UHGV virus genome: UHGV-1272094
Direction: 5' to 3' (one strand)
Source of the DNA: a virus
DNA length: 19,487 bases
In this document: one piece after another, positions 4,812 through 18,064 of the stretch
Position numbering within the stretch: position 1 is the first letter of the stretch
How the letters are laid out: each line of letters starts with the position of its first letter
Made by a program: the position numbers and the translations under genes
Notes under the pieces: generated by a model
What the model saw: the letters and a program-made list of their open reading frames with translations, nothing else
What the model was told of the DNA's origin: nothing
Databases searched by the model: none

Positions 4812-4814
4812 GTG

Positions 4815-4991
4815 TTACTCCTGAGTTTTCCAGCCCATAGCCTTCCAGTTGTCAACTTCATCAGGATGAACATTAGCGATAGTTGGTGCGCCGGGAAACA
4901 TCTGATAATCGGTCACCATAACCACTAACTCAATTTGCGTTTTTTGTGCGGCTTCACGCTGTGCTCTTTGCTCTTTAGTTAATCCGGCCAT
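4815..4991 (-). CDS. Small hypothetical protein (58 aa) between capsid and connector genes
   Basis: Not in the ORF track. ATG at 4989-4991, stop TAA at 4815-4817, no internal stops. Translation MAGLTKEQRAQREAAQKTQIELVVMVTDYQMFPGAPTIANVHPDEVDNWKAMGWKTQE. GGGGGG lies 3 nt upstream of the ATG. Confidence 0.4.
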   Translation of the reverse strand: MAGLTKEQRAQREAAQKTQIELVVMVTDYQMFPGAPTIANVHPDEVDNWKAMGWKTQE

Positions 4992-5000
4992 ATGCCCCCC

Positions 5001-5023
5001 ATTAAAAATGGGGCCGAAGCCCC
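5001..5023 (-). terminator. Terminator/attenuator hairpin just downstream of the major capsid gene
   Basis: Minus-strand GGGGC-UUCG-GCCCC stem-loop (plus 5010-5023) followed by AUUUUUAA. Lies 11 nt after the capsid stop at 5034. Confidence 0.5.
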
Positions 5024-5033
5024 GTTTGAATGT

Positions 5034-6173
5034 TTAACCAAGAATCAGACAACCATGTGCCGGCTTCACTGATGAAACACCCCATGCCAGTCCAACTTCA
5101 TAGCGCACCTGGCGATACTGACGATACAGTGCAATCTGGAACGTAATCCCTGAAATCGGGTCCGTAACATTCATTACATCATCAGCATTATCGCCACCTT
5201 CCGGCATTGCCGGAGTACGGGATGCCAGCAGAAACGCGTTGCGATCAAACGCCATATTTGCCGTAAAGGCCCCAACAACTGTGATGGCAGTATCATCGGC
5301 CAGATCCTGACGCAGTCCGGGCGCTGCAAGAGTAATCAGATTGCTGGTCGCTGCTGCCACAACATACTGATTCGGATTACCAGCGAACGTAACAATCTGA
5401 CCTGCAGAAATACTCCCCGAACCAGTATCAATGGAAATAAGAACATCGCCTTCTTTTTTCTCTCCATTCACGAGATAACCAGTTGCAGCAACCTTTGGCG
5501 CTCGTTTCACACCTGCCGAACTGTGAATATTGAATCCCTCCAGACGCCCCAACACGCCCTCACGCAGTAGCTGTTCAGTGCCGGATTCATTCACTTTAAA
5601 CAATACAGACTGTTTTCCGCGCAAATTAGCAATGGCAGTGGAGCCAAGCACCATCTGCAGATCGGTTGTCGGTGCGCCGTTATCCTCCAGAACCTGACGA
5701 GCCAGAGCAGCATCAGAAAGATCATCTTTAACACCAAACGGCGTTGTCCCTGCGGTTCCCACGGCGCGGGAAGCACCGAAATACAACGCACCAAGATCAG
5801 CCTCAACCTCGTTTGCAAGGGCGCGAAAAGCCTGCTTGAACTGATCAGCCAGAATGGTGTTGTAAGTCCCTGAAGGGCCAAGAGCCAGTTGTTCTTCACC
5901 ATTCCATTTAACCGGTGCCATTTTGGATTTAGTAATTTTTACATCAACAGTGCCAATATTTTGATCACCGGTATTCGGAGCTGACGGCCCCGGTACGATA
6001 TCTTCGGTTTTCGCCTCAGGCGCAACTGGCGCGGTTACCGTCTGATCTTTTGCTGCGGCGTCAGCTTTTACGTTTTTTGCTACCGCAGGGATAAAACCTA
6101 CCTGCTCACGGGATACAACATCCAGGGCGGTATAAATAGTCGGGATCAACCCGGTCAGGGTATTTCCAGCCAT
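5034..6173 (-). CDS. Major capsid protein (P22 coat-like by recollection)
   Basis: ATG at 6171-6173 with AAGGA upstream, 379 aa, MAGNTLTGLIPTIYTALDVVSREQ... The longer ORF-track start at 6266 is a TTG. Position after scaffold; C-terminal region resembles P22 gp5-type coat proteins from memory. Confidence 0.75.
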   Translation of the reverse strand: MAGNTLTGLIPTIYTALDVVSREQVGFIPAVAKNVKADAAAKDQTVTAPVAPEAKTEDIVPGPSAPNTGDQNIGTVDVKITKSKMAPVKWNGEEQLALGPSGTYNTILADQFKQAFRALANEVEADLGALYFGASRAVGTAGTTPFGVKDDLSDAALARQVLEDNGAPTTDLQMVLGSTAIANLRGKQSVLFKVNESGTEQLLREGVLGRLEGFNIHSSAGVKRAPKVAATGYLVNGEKKEGDVLISIDTGSGSISAGQIVTFAGNPNQYVVAAATSNLITLAAPGLRQDLADDTAITVVGAFTANMAFDRNAFLLASRTPAMPEGGDNADDVMNVTDPISGITFQIALYRQYRQVRYEVGLAWGVSSVKPAHGCLILG

Positions 6174-6271
6174 AATTAAATATTCCTTAAAAATTTGCGT
6201 AATTGTGAATAGATGGAGTAATGAGCTATCCAGCCCTGACACCAGCTCCCATCCGGAAGCTGACAAATGTG

Positions 6272-7036
6272 TTAATCAACGATTGTGATACCGTCTTTCA
6301 ATGCGTTTTGCTTACCTGCAACATCCAGTGCATCAAAAGCAGAGCGTTTCATCGTTTTCTGACCAATATCATGCTGTGTCGGACGGGAGCCGCCGCCATT
6401 GTTGCCACTGGCTTTCAGGATGTAGTCTTTCTGAGGGTAATTTTCGACAAGGAACTCCAGCGCCTCATCAAACTGCGCCAGTTCGCCAGGCTTCGCGCGG
6501 GAATAAATTTTGTTGCCGGAAGCGTCATAAGCAACGATCTTCCCTTCTTCCACTTTGAATGCCTGCCCGAAGCGGGCTTGTAATAAATCTGCCGGGATCG
6601 CAATTTTATCGGCAATATATTTTGAACCCGCAAAACTACCGCCAATCATAGAATCGTAAAGCTGCGTCTCCAGCATCTGAGAGCGTTGCTTTTCTTCATC
6701 TAATTGCTGCTGAAAATTTTTCGTAATTTCTGCCTTAACCTGGTCAACCTGTCCCGCATCGATCAGCTTTTTCTGGTCGATTTTTAACAGCATTTCCAGT
6801 GCCTCGATCGCCTTCTTCGGGTCTTCGATAGCGGCAAACTTAGCCAGTTTTTCCTCTGCAGCTTCTTTAGCCAGGCGATGATTTTTTGCCTCGCCATTAA
6901 GCTCTGTAATTTTTTTTATCGCCAGCGGTGCATCGAAGCCGATTTCTTTACCATCGTCGTGCACATAAACTGGCAGGCCAGCAGTATCAATTTCTGCGTA
7001 TTGTTTTCCGTTAATCTCGACCGTTTTCAGTTTCAT
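6272..7036 (-). CDS. Scaffolding protein, putative
   Basis: ATG at 7034-7036 (MKLKTVEINGKQYAEID...), 254 aa, charged helical region (...EAAEEKLAKFAAIEDPKKAIEALEMLLKIDQKKLIDAG...). Located between the MuF-like gene and the capsid gene. The ORF-track GTG extension to 7108 runs through the upstream hairpin. Confidence 0.6.
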   Translation of the reverse strand: MKLKTVEINGKQYAEIDTAGLPVYVHDDGKEIGFDAPLAIKKITELNGEAKNHRLAKEAAEEKLAKFAAIEDPKKAIEALEMLLKIDQKKLIDAGQVDQVKAEITKNFQQQLDEEKQRSQMLETQLYDSMIGGSFAGSKYIADKIAIPADLLQARFGQAFKVEEGKIVAYDASGNKIYSRAKPGELAQFDEALEFLVENYPQKDYILKASGNNGGGSRPTQHDIGQKTMKRSAFDALDVAGKQNALKDGITIVD

Positions 7037-7096
7037 ATTAGTACCTGGTTTAAGTCTTCCGACAGTTACGCTGCTCACCATCCGGATCGCAGCAAT

Positions 7097-7121
7097 AAAA
7101 AAGGCCACCCGAAGGTAGCCT
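7097..7121 (-). terminator. Terminator-like hairpin upstream of the scaffold gene
   Basis: Stem aggccacc/ggtagcct (7102-7109 and 7114-7121) with one mismatch and a cgaa loop. On the minus strand it is followed by TTTTTTATT. Confidence 0.3.
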
Positions 7122-7140
7122 GTTGTAATAAATGATTTAT

Positions 7141-8256
7141 TTAAATCCCTGCTTTTCTGAATACCTGTGCATCACGCTCACGGAGTTGCTTCAGCGTCAG
7201 CCATTCGCCTTTATCGGTGTAAAATTCATCTGGCGACATACCGCCATCCCGAATCAGCTTTGCCCGGGTTTCCCCCACAATCTGTTTTTGTCTGGTGTAA
7301 GGCTGACGCAAAAACCATTCCCTGTAGGTTGTATCTCCGGCCACCACGCCATCCATGCTGGCCCGCTCAGCCGGGGAAATATCACGAACATCAATACCCA
7401 GTTCCTTCGCTGATTTCAGAATGAACGTTTCCGTTGAGCGGCAGCAGAAATGAATTTTTCCCGGCCCATGCAAATAAGGCACACTGTGACCTACAGGTTT
7501 ATTATCCAGCGTATATTTGAGGCGATCCCTGATTCGACATTGTGGCGTAGTACGATTATCAAGCGTTGATAACCATTGCTTACCCTTAATCAAATCATTA
7601 TTCGCGCTGGCAAAACTCTCACGGGCAGTAGCAGCAAGATGTCCAACCGCTGTTTTTGCAATGCTGGCCGCATTAGCCCGGCTCATCTGCAATGCACCAT
7701 CCTGAAATCCCTTGCTGACATGTCCCCGAATTTTTCTTGCGATCTGCTCATTGGTATCCCCCAGCAAAAAACCCTGACGCACCGTATTTGTTATGCGTCT
7801 GAGCCGATCCGCCTCAAGATCCAAGGCCCACTCACTGAGCAGTCGTCCCTGGAATGGTCGCGCCATTGCAGCGGCGTAAAGTGCATCAGAAGATATACCA
7901 ACCAGAGGGTGAACATCAGCAACAAAATCAGGTAGCAGAGAATCAAACAGACTTAACTGATAACCAGCCTCATAAATTGCCAGCTCGTTCAGCTCTCCGG
8001 AGAGACTGGTAAACATGCTGTTAATAGCAGCGCGGTTAACCTCTCTGACACTCGCCAGAAGTGACTCCAGGCGCGTAACGGTAAAACTACCAGGATCGAG
8101 GCTGTCCAGTGCTACCAGCAGGCGAGCTGTAAGCTCCGCATCGCTGTCATTCAGTATTTTCACCATTCTGGCAGCCACACCAGTGCTATAGCGGGATATC
8201 CAGACTGCATGAGCAATTGATTCATCACGCAGCCGTTCATTCACGGTTTGCATCAT
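7141..8256 (-). CDS. Head morphogenesis protein (Mu F / SPP1 gp7-like minor head protein)
   Basis: 371-aa ORF immediately after the portal gene, overlapping its 3' end by 20 nt. The SPP1-like order terS-terL-portal-gp7-scaffold-MCP supports the call. Confidence 0.6.
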   Translation of the reverse strand: MMQTVNERLRDESIAHAVWISRYSTGVAARMVKILNDSDAELTARLLVALDSLDPGSFTVTRLESLLASVREVNRAAINSMFTSLSGELNELAIYEAGYQLSLFDSLLPDFVADVHPLVGISSDALYAAAMARPFQGRLLSEWALDLEADRLRRITNTVRQGFLLGDTNEQIARKIRGHVSKGFQDGALQMSRANAASIAKTAVGHLAATARESFASANNDLIKGKQWLSTLDNRTTPQCRIRDRLKYTLDNKPVGHSVPYLHGPGKIHFCCRSTETFILKSAKELGIDVRDISPAERASMDGVVAGDTTYREWFLRQPYTRQKQIVGETRAKLIRDGGMSPDEFYTDKGEWLTLKQLRERDAQVFRKAGI

Positions 8257-9643
8257 TGATTTCCATCAACATTACACTCTGATTTTTTAATTCATCGATC
8301 ACATCCTCTGGACGGGAATCCTGATCGATAAATTTCAACGCCTGCAACACCCGAACCGCATCAATCTGACGTATATCACCGCCCTGACGCAATGACTGAA
8401 CAGCCAGCGCGGAGGATGAGTCAAACACCTGGGCAGATACATCCAGTTCAGTGCGCACATCCACATTGCCACCGCAACTCTCTCCGCTCCATTCCGCCAT
8501 TATCTGGAGAATATTATCGAGGGCATCTTCGAGGGAGTTCGCCATTGTATAAAGCGGCGAGTGTTCCTGCATCCGCTCTTCATTAGTCTGATCAACAGAT
8601 TTGGTGGATGTATTTTCAGCCCGCAGAAGTTTAGCGCCGGCATGACGCATCTGATTTTCCAGCTTCTCAAGTGATGTTTCGCCAGATTCTATCGCTGCGC
8701 CACTATGTTCAACATATTCGAGGCCATTTTTTGTTCTGTCCTCAAAAATCGTAGCCGTGGATGCACCAACCGTCAGTTCTTCATTCCTGTCCAGCCCGTA
8801 GGCCACCAGCAATGGAACGCGGGCAACATGAAGAATATTGTCCTGCTCGCTCTGGCTTTGCCAGTGCTTGATATTCAGCAAGCCAAGATTAAGCAATGGC
8901 GGTGTACCACGCATAAACCCTGTTTTCTTCGTATACAGTGTTACCAGAGGAATATCATCACGGCTGGTATTCCATGACTCATGAAGCATCCAGACAGATT
9001 CGCCATTAGTACCTTCGCTGCGTCGATAAATTTCTACTCGACGGGGCATAATATGGCGGATCTGCTCCACCTTCTTCTGCCCGAAATCATCACCATCAAT
9101 AATGATGACCTCTTTTATACGCAAATCAGTGAGAACAACTTTCCCTTTTTCAACTTTCGATTTCCATCCAATAACCTGGCGTGGATTCAGCATCGTAACG
9201 TACGGGCGACCACCGGCCGCGTTTTCATCGGCTTTTGTCCGAATCTCGTTCATATCCGTTCGTGGATAGTCCACCAGCGCATGTGCCACACCATACTGAA
9301 ATGCGAGACTGAAAAATTGCTGCGCCCACACATCCAGTCGGCTCCCCTCCATGTCGATATTTTCTGCATATTCCCTGATTTTTTCCGGCGTTTCCTCACT
9401 CAATACTGTCGGCTCTGCAAATATGCGCCCAATATTTTGTTTGATGCTTTCTTCATACACAGGAAGTAACGTAGCCACAGACAGGCGTTTTTTATAAGCG
9501 TCTTCATCTTCATTAGGCCATTTGGGGAGATAATTTTCCCCCTGCCTGCGCATTTCAAGCGTACCGCCCATCAATGCGTCGTTAATATCCCACGCCTCCA
9601 GCATATCGTTATAGTCGAGGTTGGGTGTTGATATATCAGCCAT
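8237..9643 (-). CDS. Portal protein
   Basis: 468-aa ORF starting 2 nt after the terL stop (ATG 9641-9643, MADISTPNLDYNDMLEAWD...). Size and position are those of a portal gene. Confidence 0.75.
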   Translation of the reverse strand: MADISTPNLDYNDMLEAWDINDALMGGTLEMRRQGENYLPKWPNEDEDAYKKRLSVATLLPVYEESIKQNIGRIFAEPTVLSEETPEKIREYAENIDMEGSRLDVWAQQFFSLAFQYGVAHALVDYPRTDMNEIRTKADENAAGGRPYVTMLNPRQVIGWKSKVEKGKVVLTDLRIKEVIIIDGDDFGQKKVEQIRHIMPRRVEIYRRSEGTNGESVWMLHESWNTSRDDIPLVTLYTKKTGFMRGTPPLLNLGLLNIKHWQSQSEQDNILHVARVPLLVAYGLDRNEELTVGASTATIFEDRTKNGLEYVEHSGAAIESGETSLEKLENQMRHAGAKLLRAENTSTKSVDQTNEERMQEHSPLYTMANSLEDALDNILQIMAEWSGESCGGNVDVRTELDVSAQVFDSSSALAVQSLRQGGDIRQIDAVRVLQALKFIDQDSRPEDVIDELKNQSVMLMEINDANRE

Positions 9644-9645
9644 AA

Positions 9646-10947
9646 TTAAATCCGAAGTGATGTGACTCTTCCGGTCGGTTTGACAATAGGGAATTGCTTA
9701 ACGATGAAATAACCTCCGGCATCATTCGGGTGATCATTGCCAGATTTTTTATCAGGCTCCCCCTTATCATCCCAGACCTGTTGCTCCAGAGATTCGGCAT
9801 ATACCGGACAACGCTTCACATTAACTTTATAGCGACGCTCACCATTGGCATTGCAGAACATTGCATTCATTGAGTTAACGCGATCTTTTACTGGCGGGTT
9901 CGAGCTGTTCACCACAACGTTAAAACCTGCCTGCTTAAGCTGGGCTATATCCGTCGTACTTGCGTTACTTGATTTTCTGGAATCTCCGGAAGCATCTGGA
10001 TAAATATAAATCTCCCTCACTTTCCGGTAATCATGCCCGTCATACAGCCAGAAGCGTTCTTTAATGAGGCGGATCATATCCGGCGTATCGTAGGCATTGA
10101 TGATTTCAGTTACCGCACATGGAAGCCCCAAACGCAGCACATGGACGATTCCCGCCATCTTTCCAACGTTAAAATCCATCCCAATATAAATCGGCTCCCC
10201 TGGCTGCTCCACTTCTTCGCAATTATTCAGTTTCCGGTCAAACTGATGGTAAACAGTACCACTTGTCAGGTTAGTAAACCGTCCTAGAAGATAGGCTTTA
10301 ATCAGCTCTGGAGGGTATGATTCAAGAAGTGAAGGAATGTAATCTGCTGGCAGGTTCTTTTCATTATCGAAAGTAGATGCCTGCACCAGACCATACAGTG
10401 AGGCCAGCTCTGTTTTTTCACGCACGGCTTTAACAAACTGCTCGTAGACAAATTTGAATCCTTCCGGCGTGGTTGTAACGTCAATACCGTTGCGAAGTCC
10501 ATCAATCTTATAACGCATACGCGCAATTATCTTGCGCCACGCCGTTCTGGCTTTTTCCTTCGGCAAAATGTCCAGTTCATCCACCAGCGCATTACCAATT
10601 TTGAAACCGACGATCGTTTGTGGCTTCTCCATCGATCTGCAGATAGTGGTTCCCCGATACTGGCGTCCGTAATAAAAGTGAACCTCTTTATTTCCCTCAT
10701 TAATTTTTACGTTCAATCCCCAGTCAGCAGCAACTTCTTCCACTGTAGGGTAAAAAATATCGCGAATTTGGGGATACGTTGGCGCAAAATATCCCTGATT
10801 TATACCTGGATGCTCCCAAATCCCCTTGCATATGCCGCCACACCCAACCCATGTTTTGCCCGAGCCAAAACCAGCAATATAGGCTTTAAATTTATGGGGC
10901 ATTGAAAGAAATCGCGCCTGAGGCACATTAAGCGTCGGAGAGATCAT
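9646..10947 (-). CDS. Terminase large subunit
   Basis: Walker A motif in ...KAYIAGFGSGKTWVGCGG... Preferred ATG at 10945-10947 with AAGGAG 8 nt upstream, 433 aa. Overlaps the terS stop by 20 nt. Confidence 0.9.
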   Translation of the reverse strand: MISPTLNVPQARFLSMPHKFKAYIAGFGSGKTWVGCGGICKGIWEHPGINQGYFAPTYPQIRDIFYPTVEEVAADWGLNVKINEGNKEVHFYYGRQYRGTTICRSMEKPQTIVGFKIGNALVDELDILPKEKARTAWRKIIARMRYKIDGLRNGIDVTTTPEGFKFVYEQFVKAVREKTELASLYGLVQASTFDNEKNLPADYIPSLLESYPPELIKAYLLGRFTNLTSGTVYHQFDRKLNNCEEVEQPGEPIYIGMDFNVGKMAGIVHVLRLGLPCAVTEIINAYDTPDMIRLIKERFWLYDGHDYRKVREIYIYPDASGDSRKSSNASTTDIAQLKQAGFNVVVNSSNPPVKDRVNSMNAMFCNANGERRYKVNVKRCPVYAESLEQQVWDDKGEPDKKSGNDHPNDAGGYFIVKQFPIVKPTGRVTSLRI

Positions 10948-12022
10948 CTTCATCACTCCTTAATCTGGCATCAACCACATTAATATTGATCGCCACAGGC
11001 TGGGGATGTTCATTATCCTCCACCGTTTCGATCTCTTTGCGCAGCTTCTGGTTCTCTATTCTGCGCCGTTCAATTTCCAGTTCCTGTAGCCGCTTATCTG
11101 CACATAATGCCCCGCCAGCAGAAAGCAAACGCAACAATTCACGCCGGGCGGCAGCCTTATCCTCCAGCAGGATCTCAACACCGTATTTTCCGAGCTTTGA
11201 CCCTGCATATAATTGCCGCGCATCCCCATCAAGCAGTGTGGTATCAGCCATATAAAGCTGTCCTGTTCCCTCACCGCAGCACTTCGGGCAATCAGGATTG
11301 GGTATGGCGTTATCAACAAAGCCGAGGCCTCCATATTCCGGCTCGGGTTTACCATCTCTGGAGGCCTGTGCCGCAGCCTTATCGAATTCTGCAATATCAC
11401 GCCACTGGTAGAGATGATTCTCGCCCCAGCAATAACGGCAGTTAACACGGCGAAATTGTGCCAACTGATTGGGGTCGGCCTGGACAATGGCCATCAACTG
11501 GCTCACCAGTAAATCCAGGTCTGCGGTATAGCGTTTCTGGTACTGATTGCGGAAGTAGCTGATAGCACGATAAACCCTGGCATTTCTAAGCATACGGCTG
11601 GCGTTGCTGTTAGCTGTCGCACCTTGCCCCTCATAACCAGCCAGTCGGTATGCCTCTGTCGGCTTTTTCCCCTGAGCAACCAACATGGCGAATTTTGCCT
11701 GCTGGTCAGAAATACCGAATTCATCGGGGCAGAACGAAATTTCTTCCGTGTCCCCCTCAATCAGGAGTGCATCGGATACAGCCTTTTTTTTCTGAGATTT
11801 TCCGTTCTGCCTTTGCGCAGTCTGCGCAGTTTTTTTTCGCGCACTTTTTTGCGCAGTTTTGCGCATTTCTTTCTGCGCATTTTTCGGAGTTTTTTTGATG
11901 TAACGACGGGCTGTTGCGTAGTTCAGTCCCCTTGCTTCACACCATGCCACCGGAGATATACCGGAGCGGGTGTATTCAGCAATATACTCCTGCTGCAACG
12001 CCCCCCAGTCCGGTCTGCTCAT
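10928..12022 (-). CDS. Terminase small subunit, unusually long (364 aa) with extra domains
   Basis: Central segment ...QQAKFAMLVAQGKKPTEAYRLAGYEGQGATANSNASRMLRNARVYRAI... matches the conserved terS core as I recall it. N-terminal HTH-like region, Lys-rich linker, and C-terminal Cys-rich segments (CRYCW...CPKCCGEG) plus coiled coil. ATG 12020-12022 with AGGA upstream. Confidence 0.8.
   Translation of the reverse strand: MSRPDWGALQQEYIAEYTRSGISPVAWCEARGLNYATARRYIKKTPKNAQKEMRKTAQKSARKKTAQTAQRQNGKSQKKKAVSDALLIEGDTEEISFCPDEFGISDQQAKFAMLVAQGKKPTEAYRLAGYEGQGATANSNASRMLRNARVYRAISYFRNQYQKRYTADLDLLVSQLMAIVQADPNQLAQFRRVNCRYCWGENHLYQWRDIAEFDKAAAQASRDGKPEPEYGGLGFVDNAIPNPDCPKCCGEGTGQLYMADTTLLDGDARQLYAGSKLGKYGVEILLEDKAAARRELLRLLSAGGALCADKRLQELEIERRRIENQKLRKEIETVEDNEHPQPVAININVVDARLRSDEDDLSDA
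11814..11879. repeat. Array of six palindromic TGCGCA hexamers (one CGCGCA variant) separated by T-tracts, inside terS
   Basis: Copies start at 11814, 11823, 11838 (variant), 11850, 11860 and 11874, spaced 9-15 bp apart and each followed by T runs. The array encodes the Lys-rich linker of terS. Confidence 0.8.
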
Positions 12023-12025
12023 CAG

Positions 12026-12277
12026 TTAGTCCTGATTTTTATCCACCCTGAGTAGTTCGCGCAGAGCAAAGGCATCCCCTTTTCTGGCAAGCTTAAACAA
12101 TGCCGCTCGTAACTCGGCTTCACCTTTCGCTCTGCCCTTACGGATGGCCGCATAAAAATCTGTCATTGCTTCCCGATTTTCTTTCAGTCGGTTCAGATCA
12201 ACATCCAGAACGTCAGCGATTTGTTGTGCAGTCATCCGGCACGCTGCCAGAGACTCGACTTTCGAATACGGAATCAT
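12026..12277 (-). CDS. Small HTH-like protein of unknown function upstream of terS
   Basis: 83-aa ORF MIPYSKVESLAACRMTAQQIADVLDVDLNRLKENREAMTDFYAAIRKGRAKGEAEL... Stop is 3 nt before the terS ATG. Its 5' end overlaps the 3' end of the GT-like gene. Confidence 0.5.
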   Translation of the reverse strand: MIPYSKVESLAACRMTAQQIADVLDVDLNRLKENREAMTDFYAAIRKGRAKGEAELRAALFKLARKGDAFALRELLRVDKNQD

Positions 12278-13169
12278 TTGTCACCCCCATTGATATGCAG
12301 GGTGTCTTCTTCCTGTATTTTTCGTGAAGGATTTTTACTGCAGCGTTGTTCCAGGTGACCTGATGGTGAATGCGTTTATGGCTGGCACCCATCAGTGAGA
12401 TTTTTACGCACGACGGCGAATACATGACGGAGTAAAAACTTTTAACGTAGGTTCCGGAATCCAGATACAGCTCGGTCATTCCGCCGCTGTTTTTCTGCGT
12501 CTGTTTCTGCCCTAACTGGACAGCACCGATCGTCATAAACAATTCACCACAGCGACCGAGATTCGTGTACGTATTCACATCCTCGTTAATGCGCCCCATG
12601 AATGAGAACGGTCGATCAACCGAACAGATAAAGCTGTTCATTGCCTTGCGTTTCACCCACGAAGCATGGCCGCCATTGTCACCAAGAAAATCCCCGCCCT
12701 GCGACATAGCGATGGAAAGCGCGGGTATTGATTCGTAATACGCCAGCATTTCAGAAAGGATCGCATCCAGTTTCCTTATCGGGAAATAGGCCTGGTCATA
12801 GTTGCGATCCACCCGAAACTGGAACTCGTGATAATCATCATCGAGCTGAATGAAGTATTTACACCCGACCAGTTTTGCCAGGTCGAAACAGGCATTACGG
12901 GCGTAAAAAATTGAGCGGCGATCACCAAAATTATCGGCTTCGTCAAAACGACTGGCAATATCGGCTTTGGAAAATACCAGCACCTGTTCACCAAATTCAG
13001 CCATGTACTGATGCCGTGTCTTATCTTCATCATCAACAACGATAAAAATTTTCCCGGTATAGCCAGCACGACGCAACGTCCGGTAAGTCAGAACTTTGTC
13101 CGGTCGCCCGTGAGTCAGAATAAAGGCGCAAAAATCATCACGCATATTCCTCCTCCTCCTCCCCGCCAT
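12213..13169 (-). CDS. GT-A fold glycosyltransferase-like protein
   Basis: N-terminus AFILTHGRPDKVLTYRTLRRAGYTGKIFIVVDDED resembles the first strand/helix/strand of GT-A (GT2-like) enzymes. A DxD-type motif follows at ...YFIQLDDDYHE... Alternative ATG at 13145 gives 310 aa, with GGAGGAGGAGG just upstream. Confidence 0.55.
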   Translation of the reverse strand: MAGRRRRNMRDDFCAFILTHGRPDKVLTYRTLRRAGYTGKIFIVVDDEDKTRHQYMAEFGEQVLVFSKADIASRFDEADNFGDRRSIFYARNACFDLAKLVGCKYFIQLDDDYHEFQFRVDRNYDQAYFPIRKLDAILSEMLAYYESIPALSIAMSQGGDFLGDNGGHASWVKRKAMNSFICSVDRPFSFMGRINEDVNTYTNLGRCGELFMTIGAVQLGQKQTQKNSGGMTELYLDSGTYVKSFYSVMYSPSCVKISLMGASHKRIHHQVTWNNAAVKILHEKYRKKTPCISMGVTNDSVFESRVSGSVPDDCTTNR

Positions 13170-13932
13170 GCATGATCTCCACCATGCGCTGCGTCATTCG
13201 GACAAATCCATTTTCAATAGCCTGCTGATAATCAATGATCACCAGCGCCGACTCCTCGAAAAGGCACTGAATTTCAGCGGGGGCATGAGCGTAATAGTCC
13301 GCAATTCTGCTGAAATTAAACACTGTGTGACGTTCTGCCGCACACAGGAGGAATTTCTCAATATCAGGATCAAGGGACGCCGAACGTATCCGGCTGATCA
13401 GCTCCTGAGTTTTCGTATCGTCGTACAGTTCACTGATATCCGGTTTACCGCCCGACGGCTCATAAACAGGCGTATCAATTTTCGTCGTATACGGCTCCTC
13501 CTCATTTCCTGTACCGGGCAAAACATCCGTCAACAGTTCATCAATTTCTGTCGGGATGAAGCCTGTCAGGGAGACATCAAAATCAGCATTGATTAGGTCC
13601 GACAGCTCCATCCGCAACAGATCTTCATCCCAGCCAGCATTCATCGGCAGGCGATTATCTGCCAGGCGGTACGCCTTTTTCTGCTCATCCGTCAGGCCAG
13701 ACAGAACAATGACCGGAACAGAATCCATTTTGAGCATTTCAGCCGCCATAACACGACCGTGACCCGCAATAATTTCGCCCTTTTCGTCAATCAGCACCGG
13801 ATTAGTCCAGCCGAATTGCTTAATACTTTCTACCAGTTGTGCCACCTGCTCAGGGCTGTGCGTCCTGGCGTTGTGCGCATACGGTGACAATTCTTGTAAT
13901 GGGCGATAGACTATCTTTAATTTCTCGCTCAT
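13138..13932 (-). CDS. ParB-like nuclease domain (ParB/Srx fold) protein
   Basis: MSEKLKIVYRPLQELSPYAHNARTHSPEQVAQLVESIKQFGWTNPVLIDEKGEIIAGHGRVMAA... is a typical ParB N-terminal domain with the GxGR box. Acidic C-terminal tail GGEEEEEYA. ATG at 13930-13932. Confidence 0.8.
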   Translation of the reverse strand: MSEKLKIVYRPLQELSPYAHNARTHSPEQVAQLVESIKQFGWTNPVLIDEKGEIIAGHGRVMAAEMLKMDSVPVIVLSGLTDEQKKAYRLADNRLPMNAGWDEDLLRMELSDLINADFDVSLTGFIPTEIDELLTDVLPGTGNEEEPYTTKIDTPVYEPSGGKPDISELYDDTKTQELISRIRSASLDPDIEKFLLCAAERHTVFNFSRIADYYAHAPAEIQCLFEESALVIIDYQQAIENGFVRMTQRMVEIMHGGEEEEEYA

Positions 13933-13954
13933 ACAGCCTTGCTTTATGAATAAA

Positions 13955-13983
13955 ACGCACCCCAGCAGCCAGTGCTACTGGGG
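13955..13983 (-). terminator. Weak terminator-like hairpin downstream of trkG
   Basis: Stem ccccag/ctgggg (13960-13965 and 13978-13983) with an inner agc/gct helix. On the minus strand a UUUUAUU tract follows after a 4-nt spacer. Confidence 0.3.
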
Positions 13984-14069
13984 ACGGAGGGGTTGCTGGT
14001 AAAGTTAGGTATTGGATCAATGAGTGAGTCAACATAATATTAAACTCACAATTATAAATCAGCCATATA

Positions 14070-15545
14070 TTAGGAGCGCCAAAAAAAACCTGAAAACAAT
14101 ATAATAACAGGATAAATTTCAAGGCGACCAAGAATCATAGCTATGCACATTAAACATTTTGCAATGTCATTAAGCACTCCGAATGACGATGCAGTAGCCC
14201 CAAAACCTAATCCCATATTATTAATACATGCAGCCACTGTTGCAAATGATGTAAGAAAATCATATCCCATACCATTTAACACCAGTATAAAAAACACCGT
14301 GAAGAGAGTATAAAGAAAAAAGAAACTCCATACAGACCTCATTACACGATCTGTAACTATCTTCCCTCCTACATTTACACTCAACAACGCTCTGGGATGA
14401 GAAAGCTGATTTATCTCGTGTTTGCTTTGTTTGAAAAGTATAAGAAATCGAAGTGACTTAATTCCACCACAAGTTGAACCTATACATCCCCCAAAGAAAC
14501 TTGACAACAGCAAAAACACTATCGTGTGCGTGGGCCAACTTGCATAATCCTGCGTAGCTAAACCATTATCAGTGAGCATGGAGCTGGCAAGAAAAAACGA
14601 ATGAATAAAACTTCCATGCAAGTCATACATACCTATATGCCAGACCTGGAAAGAGGTAACAATGATCACCCCTAAGGCTATTAACAGAAAGAAACGAAGT
14701 TCAATATCTCTGATTAAAGGTTTTATCGTTTTCCTGCTAATAACAATATACCAAAGAGTGAAGTTGAAAGCCGATAGCAGGGAAAAAGAACGAGCCACCA
14801 GCTCAACCAAATAGTTATTAAAATATCCGATACTCTCGCTATGAGTTGAGAAACCACCAAGCGAAACTGTGGAAATCCCGTGACAAATAGCATCAAACAA
14901 AGGCATTCCTGCAAGTCTATAACAGACAATACAAGCAATACCTAATAAAGAATAAGTTATCCACAGTGTCCGTGACGTATCGGCCAGGCGGGGAGTGAGT
15001 TTGTCATCCTTAAATGGCCCCGGCATTTCTGACTGATAAAGCTTTGCACCACCAATACCCAATAATGGCAATACAGCAACCGCCAGAACAATAACTCCTA
15101 AACCACCTATAAAATTTAACTGTGACCGATAGTACAAATATGCCCGAGGTAATGAACTAACATCATCAATTACAGTTGCTCCTGTTGTTGTTATTCCAGA
15201 AACCCCTTCAAACAGAGCATCAATGAACGTTAAATTAAGTTCTGAGTCAATCCATAAAGGGAATGCACTAATAACAGAAAACAAAATCCAAAACATTACA
15301 ATTATAATAAACCCATCACGGGTACGTAATTGAATGCCAGATTTCTTAGTTGTATACCACGCTCCGCCACCAATGCAAAAAAATATAACGAAAGTTATAA
15401 AGAAAACGAACAGGCTTTTTTCTTTATAAAACAATGCTACAACCATTGGTGGCAACATTGAAAGACTATAGAGCCAAACCAGGAACCCACACATATGAGT
15501 AACAACTCTTACATGAGATGTATTCATATCTAAATATTCTTTCAA
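14070..15545 (-). CDS. trkG: TrkH/TrkG-family K+ uptake membrane protein (prophage cargo)
   Basis: Polytopic membrane protein with TrkH-family motifs (...FEGVSGITTTGATV..., GGxGG-type loops). Matches my recollection of E. coli TrkG, which is encoded in the Rac prophage. TTG start at 15545 has AAGGTGG 6 nt upstream; the ATG at 15527 gives 485 aa (MNTSHVRVV...). The gene is visibly AT-rich compared with its neighbours. Confidence 0.85.
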   Translation of the reverse strand: MKEYLDMNTSHVRVVTHMCGFLVWLYSLSMLPPMVVALFYKEKSLFVFFITFVIFFCIGGGAWYTTKKSGIQLRTRDGFIIIVMFWILFSVISAFPLWIDSELNLTFIDALFEGVSGITTTGATVIDDVSSLPRAYLYYRSQLNFIGGLGVIVLAVAVLPLLGIGGAKLYQSEMPGPFKDDKLTPRLADTSRTLWITYSLLGIACIVCYRLAGMPLFDAICHGISTVSLGGFSTHSESIGYFNNYLVELVARSFSLLSAFNFTLWYIVISRKTIKPLIRDIELRFFLLIALGVIIVTSFQVWHIGMYDLHGSFIHSFFLASSMLTDNGLATQDYASWPTHTIVFLLLSSFFGGCIGSTCGGIKSLRFLILFKQSKHEINQLSHPRALLSVNVGGKIVTDRVMRSVWSFFFLYTLFTVFFILVLNGMGYDFLTSFATVAACINNMGLGFGATASSFGVLNDIAKCLMCIAMILGRLEIYPVIILFSGFFWRS

Positions 15546-15664: not shown

Positions 15665-16129
15665 TTACTTTAAACACTGCTCGGTTATGTATTGCTGAGC
15701 ACCTTCAAGTTGGGCCTGCATCATTACCAGTCGTTCCCGGAGGGTGAAATAATCCCGTTCAGCGGTGTCTGCCAGTCGGGGGGAGGCTGCATTATCCACG
15801 CCGGAGGCGGTGGTGGCTTCACGCACTGACTGACAGACTGCTTTGATGTGCAACCGACGACGACCAGCGGCAACATCATCACGCAGAACATCATTTTCAG
15901 CTTTCGCATCAGCTAACTCCTTCGTGTATTTTGCATCGAGCGCAGCAACATCACGCTGACGCATCTGCATGTCAGTAATTGCCGCGTTCGCCAGCTTCAG
16001 TTCTCTGGCATTTTTGTCGCGCTGTTCTTTGTAGGCGATGGCGTTATCACGGTAATGATTAACACCCCATGACAGGCAGACGACGATGCAGATAACCAGA
16101 GCGGAGATAATCGCGGTTACTCTGTTCAT
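15665..16129 (-). CDS. Rz: Rz i-spanin
   Basis: [80 protein letters not shown]... is near-identical to lambda Rz as I recall it. Its ATG overlaps the endolysin stop as ATGA at 16126-16129. Confidence 0.9.
15724..15909 (-). CDS. Rz1: Rz1 o-spanin lipoprotein, embedded in Rz in the +1 frame
   Basis: [56 protein letters not shown]..., with lipobox VVGC and a Pro-rich tail, lying entirely inside Rz. Matches lambda Rz1 from memory. Confidence 0.85.
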
Positions 16130-16623
16130 TGCTGACCCCACAAACAGATTTCACGCTCAATCTCACGACGAGTCATGAGACCTTTCCATTGCTTACCGCC
16201 AGCATATGTCCAGCGACGTAGCTGATCACATGCGCCTTTGATATCGCCCTGGTTTATTTTGCGAAGAAGCGTCGATGTTCTGAAATTGCCAGCACCCACG
16301 TTGTAAACGAATGAGTAAAGAGCGCCGCGCGTTGTTTCCGGTATATCGACTTTGATGTACGGGTTAATTTGTCTGGCGACCGTGGCAAGGTCTTTATTCA
16401 AGAGTGTTTTGCATTCTGCTTTGGTATACGTTTTACCGAGCATGATGTCTTTTCCTGTATGCCCGTGACATACAGTCCATACACCAACAATATCTTTGTA
16501 TGGTATGTAGCTGACACCTTCCAGACCATCGTTACCACTTGGGCCAGTGATTAACACTGATGCTATAGCAATTGCTCCGCCACCAATAGCAGCAGCAACG
16601 ACTTTTCGTAATGATGGAGGCAT
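16126..16623 (-). CDS. R: SAR endolysin (lysozyme, phage P21 R-like)
   Basis: N-terminal signal-anchor-release segment [30 protein letters not shown]..., then a T4-lysozyme-like core. Closely resembles P21 R as I remember it. TAATG overlap with the holin stop at 16623. Confidence 0.85.
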
Positions 16624-17089: not shown

Positions 17090-17485
17090 CTAACCTCGCA
17101 TGTCAAAGCCAGATTTCTGAAAATCTCTGTAGACTTCCGGATTGTTGAAGGCCGGAAATTTGGCTTTATGAGCTGCGGACTTTATCGCTTCGCAATAGGC
17201 TTTATCACCGTTACTGGTAGATATTTTTAACGCCGTGCCATCCTGAGAGAATTCCATATGCAACCTGCATTTTTTCCCTTTCCAGTTATGCGGCTCATCA
17301 AGTTTGGCATTAATTGCAGCTCTGATTCCCCGCGCTTGCGCCCCCCATTCATCCTGATCATCCCAGCGTCCTGAACTGCAACTACCTGTAGCAGTAGTTT
17401 TGTGGCAATCTGAAGGGTGTAAAGGTGTGCATCCCGCAACAAAACCGACCCAAAAAGTCAACATAACGATTTTCTTTAATCCCAC
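17090..17485 (-). CDS. Lipoprotein with TolA C-terminal (domain III)-like module, copy 1
   Basis: GTG start at 17483-17485 with GAGGAG 6 nt upstream. Signal peptide MGLKKIVMLTFWVGFVAGC with lipobox VAGC. C-terminal ...GIRAAINAKLDEPHNWKGKKCRLHMEFSQDGTALKISTSNGDKAYCEAIKSAAHKAKFPAFNNPEVYRDFQKSGFDM aligns with copy 2 and with the TolA C-terminal domain as I recall it. Confidence 0.7.
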   Translation of the reverse strand: MGLKKIVMLTFWVGFVAGCTPLHPSDCHKTTATGSCSSGRWDDQDEWGAQARGIRAAINAKLDEPHNWKGKKCRLHMEFSQDGTALKISTSNGDKAYCEAIKSAAHKAKFPAFNNPEVYRDFQKSGFDMRG

Positions 17486-17635: not shown

Positions 17636-18064
17636 TCAGGGTTTAAAATCCAGCACCCCATTTTGAAATACTTTATATACTTCCGGCGAAGGGGGGGCAG
17701 GTATATCAGCATTCTTTATCGCATTCATCGCTTCACGACATAAATCGAGGTCTCCACTTTCTCTTTTAACCTCCAGTAGAAGGCCATTCGGGGCCATATG
17801 CATTCTCAGTGTACACTCTTTTCCTGAATACTTACTCGCATCCCCGAACTGTTTTTCGATGGCGCTCTTGATTTGATGGGCATACAGACGGATATCCTCA
17901 CTAACATCAGAAGTACGTTCAGATGAACTCACATACTGTGTCTCTATTGCTTTATCGGAGTAATATGATGTACGGTCATGATAATTTGTCGATACAGCAT
18001 CAGTGCACCCGATAATAATCCCACTAATAATCAACGTAAGAATTGATGCGCTACGAAAACCCAT
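17636..18064 (-). CDS. Lipoprotein with TolA C-terminal (domain III)-like module, copy 2
   Basis: ATG at 18062-18064 with GAGGA 5 nt upstream. Signal peptide MGFRSASILTLIISGIIIGC with lipobox IIGC. C-terminal ...YAHQIKSAIEKQFGDASKYSGKECTLRMHMAPNGLLLEVKRESGDLDLCREAMNAIKNADIPAPPSPEVYKVFQNGVLDFKP resembles TolA domain III (recalled ...QIKSAIESKFYDASSYAGKTCTLRIKLAPDGMLLDIKPEGGDPALCQAALAAAKLAKIPKPPSQAVYEVFKNAPLDFKP). Confidence 0.75.
   Translation of the reverse strand: MGFRSASILTLIISGIIIGCTDAVSTNYHDRTSYYSDKAIETQYVSSSERTSDVSEDIRLYAHQIKSAIEKQFGDASKYSGKECTLRMHMAPNGLLLEVKRESGDLDLCREAMNAIKNADIPAPPSPEVYKVFQNGVLDFKP
17942..18036. repeat. Left copy of a perfect inverted repeat of at least 95 bp, inside the 5' coding region of lipoprotein 2
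   Basis: Plus 17942-18036 equals the reverse complement of 19393-19487 at every position checked by hand. Identity stops abruptly at 18037/19392. Confidence 0.9.

What the first reader, a model, noticed from the sequence alone, without database searches (positions are those of the whole stretch)
12213..13932. ParB-like nuclease-domain protein paired with a GT-A glycosyltransferase-like protein immediately upstream of terS
The 264-aa protein has a clear ParB N-terminal domain (…IIAGHGRVMAA…) and an acidic tail. The overlapping downstream gene has a GT-A-like first strand, a VVDDED segment and a DDD motif. Both sit between the trkG cargo gene and the packaging genes and are translationally coupled to the small HTH gene and terS. 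ParB-like and glycosyltransferase domains recur in phage DNA modification and anti-restriction systems, so this pair may modify DNA or a protein before packaging. I believe the short uncharacterised K-12 genes ynaK and ydaY are remnants of this pair.
Basis: partly seen in the sequence, partly recalled or inferred. Interest (0 to 1): 0.7.

Follow-up and report, generated by a model that had tools for sequence, protein, structure and literature searches.

The report
Phage ParB-like adaptor plus glycosyltransferase pair
Just upstream of the DNA-packaging genes, this E. coli prophage carries two tightly coupled genes, a ParB-like protein with a previously undescribed tail domain and a sugar-transferring enzyme of a DNA-glycosylating family; the pair recurs in phages of many bacterial phyla and one archaeal virus and probably sugar-coats phage DNA, though its target is unknown.

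Summary
On the minus strand, 13138-13932 encodes a 264-aa ParB/Srx-fold protein. 12213-13145 encodes a 310-aa GT-A glycosyltransferase of Pfam family TAGT (PF20691, E 6e-35). The genes overlap by 8 nt and sit between trkG and terS/terL in a Rac-like prophage.

New here: the true constant partner of the glycosyltransferase (GT) is not the ParB domain. It is the protein's C-terminal domain (aa ~145-255, motif Y-[TS]-x-K-I-x-x-P-x-Y-E-P plus a helical bundle), which has no Pfam or PDB match.
- 38 of 40 non-redundant viral loci have this domain directly upstream of the GT.
- 40 of 41 genomic loci found through the domain have the GT directly downstream.
- 77 of 81 junctions overlap.
- The pair occurs in more than 10 bacterial phyla and a haloarchaeal virus, next to at least four terminase families.
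- Some partners lack the ParB domain altogether.

The N-module is the one fused to phage DNA adenine methyltransferases. No TET/JBP or thymidylate-synthase-like gene accompanies the pair.

Best reading (about 0.45): an adaptor-tethered, post-replicative DNA glycosylation module that acts before packaging, with an unknown acceptor. A protein acceptor remains possible.

ynaK is a remnant of the ParB gene. ydaY is not a remnant of the GT.

The parts
13138..13932 (-). Partner gene (264 aa): ParB/Srx-fold N-module, a linker motif, a C-terminal GT-partner domain and an acidic tail. The K-12 pseudogene-like ynaK is its first 84 codons.
   Evidence: ORF. Pfam ParB_N and phrog_620. Structure model and Foldseek hits to Noc/ParB/PadC/KorB. 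ynaK mapping. dN/dS 0.10-0.11.
13528..13932 (-). N-module (aa 1-135): ParB-CTPase fold with box I (SIKQFGWTNP), box II as IIAGHGR instead of GERR, and box III as ADN, followed by a short helical extension. It has no HTH DNA-binding domain and no ParA-binding motif.
   Evidence: Profile alignment to PDB ParB/Noc chains. PADLOC MTase_II N-terminus, E 2.5e-38. phrog_498 DNA methyltransferase, E 1.2e-50. tblastn finds 407 phage records, many annotated as adenine methyltransferases.
13456..13491 (-). Linker motif YTTKIDTPVYEP (aa 148-159), consensus Y-[TS]-x-K-I-x-x-P-x-Y-E-P. Y148, P155 and Y157 are invariant, although the segment is modelled as disordered.
   Evidence: Translation. Alignments A1 and A4. 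pLDDT below 50 for residues 136-169.
13171..13437 (-). Helical C-terminal domain (aa 166-254). Together with the linker motif it is the constant, GT-specific partner domain. It has no Pfam or PDB sequence match.
   Evidence: Translation. Presence upstream of the GT in 38/40 viral loci, and the GT downstream in 40/41 genomic loci. No family hits.
13138..13161 (-). Acidic tail codons (GAGGAGGAGGAGGAA TAT GCG TGA). They contain a GGAGG Shine-Dalgarno-like run and the GT start codon; the two genes overlap by 8 nt (13138-13145).
   Evidence: Sequence. RefSeq start. An overlapping junction is conserved in 77/81 loci.
12213..13145 (-). GT-A glycosyltransferase of the TAGT family (310 aa from the RefSeq start; the ORF extends to 13169). 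RefSeq names it 'GREB1-related protein'.
12834..12842 (-). DDD (D102-D104), the DxD metal / nucleotide-sugar motif. D102 is invariant. The other invariant residues are D41, Q149, G151, D152, R166, K167, N187, D189, R258, H260, H261 and W265.
   Evidence: Translation. Alignment A2 of 29 sequences down to 39% identity.
12026..12277 (-). Small gene (83-aa ORF; 69 aa from the RefSeq start at 12235). It belongs to the terminase module, not to the pair.
   Evidence: phrog_309 terminase small subunit, residues 145-218 of 319, E 8e-23. A gene of about 85 aa recurs between the GT and terS in enterobacterial loci.
9646..12022 (-). terS (10928-12022) and terL (9646-10956), the packaging genes immediately downstream (context).
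   Evidence: Pfam Terminase_2, Terminase_6N and Terminase_6C.
13960..13983 (-). Terminator-like hairpin after the trkG cargo gene and before the partner gene.
   Evidence: Scan. Sequence.

Best explanation
The two genes form an obligate, translationally coupled two-component glycosyltransferase module. It is transcribed with the late (lysis and packaging) genes.

The components:
- The enzyme is a GT-A glycosyltransferase of the TAGT/JGT/GREB1 clade, whose characterised phage and kinetoplastid members put sugars on DNA bases.
- Its partner is modular. The conserved C-terminal domain (YTxKIxxPxYEP motif plus a helical bundle) docks to or activates the enzyme.
- The exchangeable N-terminal ParB-CTPase-fold module is the same module that phages fuse to DNA adenine methyltransferases. 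It brings the complex onto double-stranded phage DNA, probably as an NTP-gated clamp or DNA-opening factor.

Proposed outcome: replicated phage DNA is glycosylated shortly before the terminase packages it, so that injected DNA is shielded from nucleases in the next host.

Shown here: fold and family of both proteins; near-obligate adjacency and overlapping junctions across phyla; purifying selection; the modular partner; the absence of a hydroxymethyl-pyrimidine source.

Inferred: physical interaction, DNA as the acceptor, timing, and protective function.

Unknown: the acceptor atom. With no TET/JBP or thymidylate-synthase-like enzyme present, it would have to be a canonical base or another group.
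For: 1. Family and fold.
- PF20691 at 121.5 bits; GT-A fold.
- The structural neighbours are phage TAGT proteins, including a T-even-type beta-glucosyl-HMC-alpha-glucosyltransferase.
- Family members add glucose to glucosyl-hmC DNA (PMC13216743, PMC13390438). Phage GT-A enzymes with R...DDD...ED motifs glycosylate 5hmC DNA (bioRxiv 10.1101/2023.12.21.572611). Here R14, D102-104 and E188-D189 are conserved.

2. Pairing.
- 38/40 non-redundant IMG/VR loci have the C-domain protein directly upstream of the GT.
- 40/41 genomic loci retrieved with the C-domain profile have the GT directly downstream.
- 77/81 junctions overlap.
- The pair also occurs in Lactobacillus, Porphyromonas and Nocardia phages and in the archaeal virus HHTV-2.

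3. DNA link of the N-module.
- PADLOC MTase_II, E 2.5e-38; phrog_498, E 1e-50.
- The nearest non-self phage homologues are annotated as adenine DNA methyltransferases.
- It has the ParB-CTPase fold.

4. Precedent. Phage ParB-like proteins without a DNA-binding domain are required activators of thymine dioxygenases on dsDNA (PMC13229309).

5. Context.
- The pair is placed before terS/terL of at least four terminase families.
- In 191-kb Vibrio phages a C-domain-only partner and the GT sit between the primase/exonuclease and helicase genes.

6. Accessory genes resemble DNA-glycan clusters: tandem GTs, a GalE-like epimerase, methyltransferase and sulfotransferase fusions.

7. dN/dS is 0.08-0.11 for both genes.
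Against: - No hydroxymethyl-pyrimidine source was found. No TET/JBP, thymidylate-synthase-like or DNA C5-methyltransferase gene is annotated in the 40-kb Rac-like region read (from the integrase to the tail-tip genes), in the early region of Lactobacillus phage phi jlb1 or the stretch around its pair, or within up to 8-10 kb on whichever sides the contig extends, in the six other contexts that were Pfam-annotated. The acceptor chemistry known for this family is therefore missing.
- Glycosylation of an unmodified DNA base has no precedent known to me.
- GREB1, from the same GT clade, glycosylates a protein on Thr/Ser (PMC7968844). The partner carries an invariant Y-[TS] motif in a disordered linker that could itself be an acceptor.
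- Some partners lack the ParB module entirely (L088, L091, L103, L106, L111), so DNA clamping cannot be essential to catalysis.
- Box II is GHGR rather than GERR, so NTP binding and hydrolysis are uncertain. In the dioxygenase system, NTP-site mutations did not abolish activation (PMC13229309).
- No interaction, modified nucleoside or phenotype has been measured.
Confidence: 0.45

Rival explanations
1. This is a protein-glycosylation module. The GT transfers sugar to the partner itself, glycogenin-like, on the invariant Tyr or Ser/Thr of the YTxKIxxPxYEP linker, or to another phage protein (terminase, portal, head) that the partner presents. The ParB module then only localises or regulates that glycoprotein.
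For: - GREB1, in the same GT clade, O-GlcNAcylates Thr/Ser of a protein (PMC7968844).
- The motif has an invariant Y148 and Y157, and position 149 is always T or S, in a segment predicted to be disordered.
- The C-domain, not the DNA-linked N-module, is the constant partner.
- No hydroxymethyl-base source is present.
Against: - The closest structural and sequence relatives are phage TAGT proteins annotated or shown as DNA glycosyltransferases.
- The N-module is shared with DNA methyltransferase fusions.
- In the Vibrio phages the pair sits in the replication module.
- An invariant short motif is equally expected for a docking peptide.
Confidence: 0.22
2. This is a conventional hydroxymethyl-pyrimidine glycosyltransferase. 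The GT needs 5hmC or 5hmU (or glucosyl-hmC) in DNA, supplied by genes elsewhere, by a co-infecting phage or by oxidative damage. In Rac-like prophages it is idle, or it acts on foreign hydroxymethylated DNA.
For: - It meets the Pfam TAGT threshold.
- It shows distant homology (24.7% identity, E 9e-6) and structural similarity to T-even-type beta-glucosyl-HMC-alpha-glucosyltransferases.
- Every characterised DNA member of the family uses hydroxymethyl-derived acceptors (PMC13216743; 10.1101/2023.12.21.572611).
Against: - The 40-kb Rac-like region read and the parts of 38-kb phi jlb1 read show no such pathway, and neither do the six Pfam-annotated contexts.
- Both genes are under strong purifying selection, and the pair is conserved as a self-contained unit across phyla. 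An idle enzyme would not be expected to show either.
- The T4-like TAGT of Aeromonas phage Ah1 lacks the C-domain partner, so this clade is distinct.
Confidence: 0.1
3. The two genes have independent, ordinary functions and are merely neighbours. The ParB-like protein would be a partition, nuclease or packaging-accessory factor. The GT would be a lysogenic-conversion enzyme that modifies a cell-surface glycan such as LPS or teichoic acid.
For: - Annotators call the first gene 'chromosome (plasmid) partitioning protein'.
- A cargo gene (trkG) sits next door.
Against: - Adjacency holds in 38/40 and 40/41 loci across phyla, with overlapping start and stop codons in 77/81.
- The pair is in the late operon, not near the attachment site or the immunity region.
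- No parA gene, HTH domain or ParA-binding motif is present.
- The partner's conserved part is not the ParB domain.
Confidence: 0.05

Closest known systems
ParB-dependent phage thymine dioxygenases (5mYOX + ParB; O'Toole et al., PNAS 2026, PMC13229309)
   Same: - A phage ParB-CTPase-fold protein without an HTH DNA-binding domain, with an N-terminal nucleotide-binding domain and a C-terminal domain, is encoded next to a post-replicative DNA-modifying enzyme and is needed for its action on dsDNA.
- Such genes are often near terminase genes.
- The N-x-R, S and R positions of ParB176 have counterparts here: N21-x-R23, S36 and R60.
   Different: - The enzyme here is a glycosyltransferase, not a dioxygenase, and no dioxygenase is present.
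- Homology of the C-terminal domains could not be tested because no sequences were available.
- Here the C-domain can occur without any ParB module.
TAGT family PF20691, including the T2/T6 beta-glucosyl-HMC-alpha-glucosyltransferase and TET/JBP-associated GTs (Iyer et al. 2013, from my own knowledge; PMC13216743; PMC13390438)
   Same: - The Pfam model is matched well above threshold.
- GT-A fold and DDD motif.
- Phage-encoded.
   Different: - Identity to a T4-like member is only about 25%.
- There is no hmC or hmU pathway, no alpha- or beta-GT and no TET/JBP nearby.
- It has an obligate partner protein that the T4-like member examined lacks.
- It corresponds to the 'solitary TAGT' phages that PMC13216743 counted (288 of 753) but did not explain.
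Phage ParB-N6/N4 DNA methyltransferase fusions (phrog_498; PADLOC MTase_II; Kaljevic et al. 2025, PMC12704722)
   Same: - The N-module (aa ~3-144) is homologous: E 1e-50 and 2.5e-38, and up to 55% identity.
- They occupy the same kind of genomic slot in temperate phages.
   Different: The catalytic partner is a separate glycosyltransferase recruited through a dedicated C-terminal domain, rather than a fused methyltransferase domain.
GREB1 / kinetoplastid base-J glucosyltransferase (JGT)
   Same: - Same GT-A clade; RefSeq names the E. coli protein 'GREB1-related'.
- JGT glucosylates hmU in DNA. GREB1 O-GlcNAcylates a protein (PMC7968844).
   Different: - The eukaryotic proteins are large and multidomain.
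- Neither uses a ParB-like partner.
- The relationship shows that the acceptor class in this clade is not fixed.

Membership tests
TAGT (PF20691) DNA glycosyltransferases | Matches the family profile above the curated threshold | tested here: met
   121.5 bits against a cut-off of 27.5, E 6.1e-35, residues 16-230. phrog_842, E 1.5e-103.
TAGT (PF20691) DNA glycosyltransferases | GT-A fold with a DxD motif and the R...DDD...ED active-site pattern | tested here: met
TAGT (PF20691) DNA glycosyltransferases | Genomic association with TET/JBP dioxygenase, or with an hmC/hmU pathway and alpha/beta-GT | tested here: not met
   None is annotated in the 40-kb Rac-like region L003, in the parts of phi jlb1 read, or within up to 8-10 kb in the six Pfam-annotated contexts. 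None appears among the top 25 Pfam families of 136 neighbouring proteins; 34 rarer families were not displayed.
TAGT (PF20691) DNA glycosyltransferases | Transfers sugar to hydroxymethyl-pyrimidine or to glucosyl-hmC in DNA | not testable with these tools
   Needs biochemistry or nucleoside mass spectrometry.
ParB-CTPase fold (PF02195), canonical partition ParB | ParB N-terminal domain by profile and by fold | tested here: met
   Pfam 28.9 bits against a cut-off of 26.3. Foldseek hits to Noc, ParB-CDP, PadC and KorB, E ~1e-6.
ParB-CTPase fold (PF02195), canonical partition ParB | Box II GERRxRA arginine patch and box I / box III nucleotide-binding residues | tested here: inconclusive
   IIAGHGR aligns to IIAGERR (E to H58, R to G59, R60 kept). 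Box I SI..G...P and box III D92-N93 are kept. NTP binding was not measured.
ParB-CTPase fold (PF02195), canonical partition ParB | Central HTH parS-binding domain, ParA-binding N-terminal motif and a neighbouring parA gene | tested here: not met
   There is no HTH Pfam hit, and only short helices 103-134 follow the nucleotide-binding domain. TIGR00180 scores 38.5 bits against a cut-off of 58.45. No parA gene is in the prophage. No [LFI]G[KR]G[LFI] motif is present in the sequence. No inverted repeats were found in 10900-14100.
5mYOX-associated ParB activators (PMC13229309) | ParB nucleotide-binding domain plus a C-terminal domain, no DNA-binding domain, encoded next to the enzyme it activates | tested here: met
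   Architecture. Adjacency and coupling to the enzyme gene.
5mYOX-associated ParB activators (PMC13229309) | The cognate enzyme is a TET/JBP-type dioxygenase | tested here: not met
   The neighbour is a GT-A glycosyltransferase and no dioxygenase was found.
5mYOX-associated ParB activators (PMC13229309) | Sequence homology of the C-terminal domain to ParB176-type C-terminal domains | not tested
   No sequences are in the held text or supplements.
ParB-DNA methyltransferase fusions (phrog_498 / PADLOC MTase_II) | Homologous ParB N-module | tested here: met
   E 1.2e-50. E 2.5e-38 over residues 10-144. 55% identity to an annotated adenine methyltransferase.
ParB-DNA methyltransferase fusions (phrog_498 / PADLOC MTase_II) | Fused N6_N4 methyltransferase catalytic domain | tested here: not met
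   Residues 145-264 have no methyltransferase hit and in fact no Pfam hit at all.

The most novel reading that the evidence does not exclude
The module installs a sugar directly on a canonical, non-hydroxymethylated position of DNA, for example an exocyclic amine or ring nitrogen. That would be chemically analogous to DNA ADP-ribosylation, but would use a nucleotide-sugar donor. A ParB-type clamp or adaptor would guide the enzyme. This would be a previously unseen DNA modification made by a self-contained two-gene cassette, present in temperate phages of more than 10 bacterial phyla, a haloarchaeal virus, and about 16% of complete E. coli genomes.
Probability: 0.25. Interest if true: 0.9.

Novelty: new variant of a known kind. 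Interest (0 to 1): 0.66.

Why it matters
Phage DNA glycosylation is currently understood as a decoration of hydroxymethyl-pyrimidines. Recent surveys noted that most phage GT-A genes (about 65% of contigs) and 288 of 753 TAGT-carrying phages lack such a pathway, and left them unexplained.

This locus gives that orphan class a defined anatomy:
- a GT that is almost never found without a specific partner domain, which so far has no family assignment;
- a partner domain usually fused to the ParB module that phages also attach to DNA methyltransferases.

If the acceptor is DNA, this extends ParB-assisted DNA modification from oxidation to glycosylation and may reveal a new base modification. That would bear on restriction evasion, on type IV restriction targets, on sequencing artefacts and on enzymatic DNA-labelling tools. 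If the acceptor is a protein, it is a new phage glycoprotein system.

Either way the question can be tested directly in E. coli. The pair is intact in 867 of 5426 complete genomes and in inducible phages already isolated, and K-12 supplies a natural deletion (ynaK).

Tried and rejected
1. ydaY as a GT remnant: rejected. tblastn puts ydaY at window 1764-2114 with 100% identity, and blastn shows a K-12 deletion joining 2115 to 13679.
2. TET/JBP or hydroxymethylase nearby: not found. displays only the top 25 of 59 families, so a rare singleton cannot be excluded there.
3. Known defence or anti-defence system: PADLOC gives no hit for the GT or the small gene. Its only hit is MTase_II for the ParB module.
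4. Family assignment for the C-terminal domain: the Pfam scan at E up to 10 and a profile search of PDB sequences gave only noise, such as designed armadillo repeats and Phage_Gene47 at E 0.04. NCBIfam names neither the GT nor the small gene.
5. Natural partner-GT fusions as a Rosetta stone: the long GT homologues are GT-methyltransferase, GT-sulfotransferase or tandem-GT proteins, or carry unassigned N-terminal extensions. None carries the ParB or C-domain.
6. parS-like inverted repeats around the pair: none. Promoter-like sites are not enriched.
7. Sequences of the published 5mYOX-associated ParBs: not in the held supplements, so C-terminal-domain homology is untested.
8. Iyer et al. 2013 (PMC3763556) is not held. 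No held paper contains both 'TAGT' and 'ParB' in a relevant sense. A search for ynaK returned nothing useful.
9. The AFDB fold library was unavailable.
10. A heterodimer structure prediction was not possible with the tools.
11. I did not read the full 191-kb Vibrio phage genomes for hydroxymethylase genes.
Full report
**1. What is in the window.**
All genes discussed lie on the minus strand of a Rac-like lambdoid prophage of E. coli. In order they are:
- lysozyme rrrD (16126-16623);
- an Rz-like lysis gene (15665-16141);
- the low-GC cargo gene trkG (14070-15545, GC 0.35-0.41), followed by a terminator-like hairpin (13983-13960);
- a 264-aa gene (13138-13932);
- a 318-aa ORF (12213-13169, which RefSeq starts at M9 = 13145, giving 310 aa);
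- a small gene (12026-12277; 69 aa from the RefSeq start);
- terS (10928-12022) and terL (9646-10956).

The finding's coordinates and quoted motifs are exact. IIAGHGR is at 13753-13773, DDD at 12834-12842, and FIVVDDEDK is in the first strands of the second protein.

The stop of the first gene and the start of the second overlap by 8 nt (GAA TAT GCG TGA read as ATG CGT GAT). The run GAGGAGGAGGAGGA that encodes the acidic tail is also a Shine-Dalgarno-like sequence for the second gene.

**2. Identity of the two proteins.**

*Partner protein.*
- It passes Pfam ParB_N (28.9 bits against 26.3) and matches phrog_620 at E 1.5e-90.
- Its AlphaFold model is confident for residues ~10-135. Foldseek places it with Noc, ParB-CDP, PadC and KorB.
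- A profile alignment to solved ParB/Noc chains shows box I retained. Box II is IIAGHGR where ParB has IIAGERR: the hydrolysis Glu is replaced by His58, one Arg is lost and Arg60 is kept. Box III is D92-N93.
- It has no HTH domain and no ParA-binding motif. The prophage has no parA gene.

*Glycosyltransferase (GT).*
- It matches Pfam PF20691, 'TET-associated glycosyltransferase' (TAGT), at 121.5 bits, and phrog_842 at E 1.5e-103. RefSeq calls it 'GREB1-related protein'.
- Among viral models its best matches are TAGT-domain proteins (E 9e-30, TM 0.76-0.84). A T-even-type beta-glucosyl-HMC-alpha-glucosyltransferase is a more distant match (E 3.9e-8).
- In 29 sequences down to 39% identity, these residues are invariant: D41, D102 (of DDD), Q149, G151, D152, R166, K167, N187, D189, R258, H260, H261 and W265.

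**3. ynaK and ydaY.**
In K-12-type genomes the similarity to this region stops at window 13679. BLAST of the K-12 locus shows one deletion joining window 2115 to 13679.
- ynaK (87 aa) is the first 84 codons of the ParB-like gene, at 97.7% identity.
- ydaY is 100% identical to window 1764-2114. That is the 3' part of a 153-aa gene between the tail-tube and tape-measure genes.

Across complete E. coli genomes, 1610 of 5426 have some match and 867 have at least 80% of the 2.1-kb pair region.

**4. The pair is a conserved module, and its constant element is not the ParB domain.**
Both proteins have thousands of database relatives.

I split the partner into an N-module profile (aa 1-135) and a C-terminal profile (aa 145-255), and scanned 80 IMG/VR loci recovered with a GT alignment.
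- In 38 of 40 loci that are non-redundant at 90% GT identity, the ORF immediately upstream of the GT carries the C-terminal domain. The two remaining loci (L082 and L084) were not evaluable rather than negative. In L082 the GT sits at the contig edge. In L084 my crude gene call failed, although the profile hits are adjacent.
- The C-terminal hit is stronger and more constant than the N-terminal one.
- Some partners have a very divergent ParB/Srx-like N-domain, for example ...LAGNMRLRA... or ...DGHHR....
- Some partners consist of the C-domain alone (135-153 aa). Examples are L088, L103, L106, L111 and the 139-aa protein of the 191-kb Vibrio phage pv27. In pv27 the pair sits between the primase/exonuclease and helicase genes.

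The reverse test used a profile of the C-domain alone against one genome per species. It returned 42 loci, from Enterobacteria, Bacteroidota, Desulfovibrionaceae, Saccharibacteria, Falkowbacteria, Chlorobi, Christensenellaceae, Acidimicrobiaceae, Spirochaetes and others. In 40 of the 41 loci with room downstream, the GT follows immediately. The exception is at a degraded prophage edge and has a non-ParB N-domain.

The partner stop and the profile-projected GT start overlap or lie within 4 nt of each other in 77 of 81 loci, most often overlapping by 8 nt.

Cultured viruses with the pair include:
- Lactobacillus phage phi jlb1 (jlb1_024/025);
- Porphyromonas phages (GT only 27% identical, same order ParB-GT-terS-terL);
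- Haloarcula virus HHTV-2 (genes 21/22);
- Nocardia phage NTR1 and the L. delbrueckii phages, which carry GT homologues (with a ParB-like gene annotated beside it in some), though I did not inspect their partners.

The C-domain has no Pfam, NCBIfam or PDB sequence match. Its signature is Y-[TS]-x-K-I-x-x-P-x-Y-E-P in a linker modelled as disordered, followed by ...AAxRHxVFxYxKIADYYAH...SALVIIDFxKAIExGF....

Both E. coli genes are under purifying selection, with dN/dS 0.08-0.11.

**5. Context.**
Downstream of the pair lie large terminases of at least four families: Terminase_6N, Terminase_3, TerL_ATPase and GpA. Several portal families also occur. The module therefore moves between unrelated packaging systems yet keeps its place just before them.

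No TET/JBP dioxygenase, thymidylate-synthase-like hydroxymethylase or C5-methyltransferase was seen:
- in the 40-kb Rac-like region read (from the integrase to the tail-tip genes);
- in the parts of 38-kb phi jlb1 read;
- within up to 8-10 kb, on whichever sides the contig extends, in the six Pfam-annotated contexts.

Some loci add sugar-tailoring functions:
- a second tandem TAGT (L139);
- a GalE-like epimerase (L081, L140);
- class I methyltransferases (L037, L088);
- GT-methyltransferase and GT-sulfotransferase fusions (P0248, P0251, P0285, P0287, L074);
- a weak GT9-like plus MptE-like pair (L037).

**6. The N-module links the system to DNA.**
- Residues 10-144 match the N-terminus of PADLOC's type II methyltransferase model (E 2.5e-38).
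- Residues 3-141 match phrog_498, 'DNA methyltransferase' (E 1.2e-50).
- tblastn finds 407 phage records. The nearest non-self hits (about 55% identity) and many others are annotated as adenine-specific DNA methyltransferases.

Phages therefore attach this module covalently to a DNA methyltransferase. In the present case they attach it to a domain that is always accompanied by a glycosyltransferase.

**7. What the literature says.**
- PF20691 includes the T2/T6 enzyme that adds a second glucose to glucosyl-hmC DNA. It has a GT-A fold and is sister to GT2. 288 of 753 phage genomes carry 'solitary' TAGT homologues of undefined function (PMC13216743; PMC13390438).
- Phage GT-A enzymes next to methyltransferase/TET genes build diverse glycans on 5hmC. 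About 65% of GT-containing contigs lack a 5mYOX or ThyS neighbour and were set aside. ParB-like genes were noted among the neighbours (bioRxiv 10.1101/2023.12.21.572611).
- A subclass of phage thymine dioxygenases requires a cognate ParB-like protein with a nucleotide-binding domain and a C-terminal domain but no DNA-binding domain. The requirement applies specifically on dsDNA. NTP-site mutations did not abolish activation (PMC13229309).
- ParB-CTPase folds in phages are often fused to methyltransferases and bind CTP, ATP or GTP (PMC12704722).
- GREB1, in the same GT clade, is a protein O-GlcNAc transferase (PMC7968844).
- I found no paper describing the ParB-TAGT pair or its C-terminal domain. 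Iyer et al. 2013, which defined TAGT, is not in the held library, so I cannot exclude that it mentions the neighbourhood.

**8. Interpretation.**
The firm conclusion (about 0.8) is that these are two subunits of one system. The partner's C-domain is dedicated to the GT, and its N-module is an exchangeable, DNA-associated ParB-type domain.

The most likely function (about 0.45) is post-replicative glycosylation of phage DNA just before packaging. The partner would tether or activate the GT on dsDNA, much as ParB activates the thymine dioxygenases and as the same N-module serves fused methyltransferases.

The weak point is chemistry: the hydroxymethyl acceptor used by every characterised DNA member of the family is not provided. 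That leaves three possibilities:
- a new acceptor on canonical DNA (the novel case, about 0.25, contained within the 0.45);
- a protein acceptor, possibly the partner's own Y-[TS] linker (about 0.22);
- dependence on hydroxymethylated DNA from elsewhere (about 0.1).

Independent, unrelated functions for the two genes are very unlikely (about 0.05).

**9. Verdict.**
The finding is a new variant of a known kind: ParB-assisted phage nucleic-acid modification, here with a glycosyltransferase and a dedicated, unannotated adaptor domain. It is widespread, unexplained in recent surveys, and directly testable in E. coli.

Noticed in passing
window 17090-17485 and 17636-18064 (- strand): Two prophage genes encode TolA C-terminal domains (Pfam TolA E 1.3e-14 and 2.4e-23). 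They lie upstream of the lysis cassette. RefSeq marks one as a partial tolA. They may be decoys for colicins or filamentous phages that use TolA.
   Followed up: partly
window 14070-15545 (- strand) with hairpin 13960-13983: trkG is a low-GC (0.35-0.41) cargo gene inserted between the lysis genes and the ParB-GT pair. It has its own terminator-like hairpin. Related phages without trkG place the pair directly after the lysis genes or other cargo, for example an LT-II-like enterotoxin A/B pair in Yersinia locus L008:2174-3332.
   Followed up: partly
window 1764-2225 (- strand): This is the full-length form (153 aa) of K-12 YdaY. It sits between the tail-tube and tape-measure genes, the usual place of a tail assembly chaperone. 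It has no Pfam hit.
   Followed up: partly
window 13138-13161; loci L004-L134 junctions: The acidic C-terminal tail of the partner is encoded by purine-rich codons that double as the ribosome-binding and start region of the GT gene. In enterobacterial loci the junction is typically NAT-GCG-TGA, which fixes the partner's terminal Ala and the GT's N-terminal Met-Arg-Asp/Glu. This is a dual-coding constraint.
   Followed up: yes
L037:3912-6014 (+): An enterobacterial prophage carries, directly upstream of its ParB-GT pair, a weak MptE/Maf-like protein, a weak GT9-like protein and a Methyltransf_23 protein. This suggests an extended glycan-building cluster.
   Followed up: partly
L003:26283-29676 (- strand; phage vB_EcoS-683R6 early region, outside the window): An S8-family peptidase sits next to an FtsH-like AAA protein in the early region of the intact Rac-like phage. 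It may be a defence or abortive-infection cargo.
   Followed up: no
L107:5557-6360 (+): In a Syntrophorhabdus MAG, a C-domain partner has a non-ParB N-terminal domain with no Pfam hit and has no GT downstream. It sits at a prophage edge next to host glgC. This is the only exception to the pairing.
   Followed up: partly
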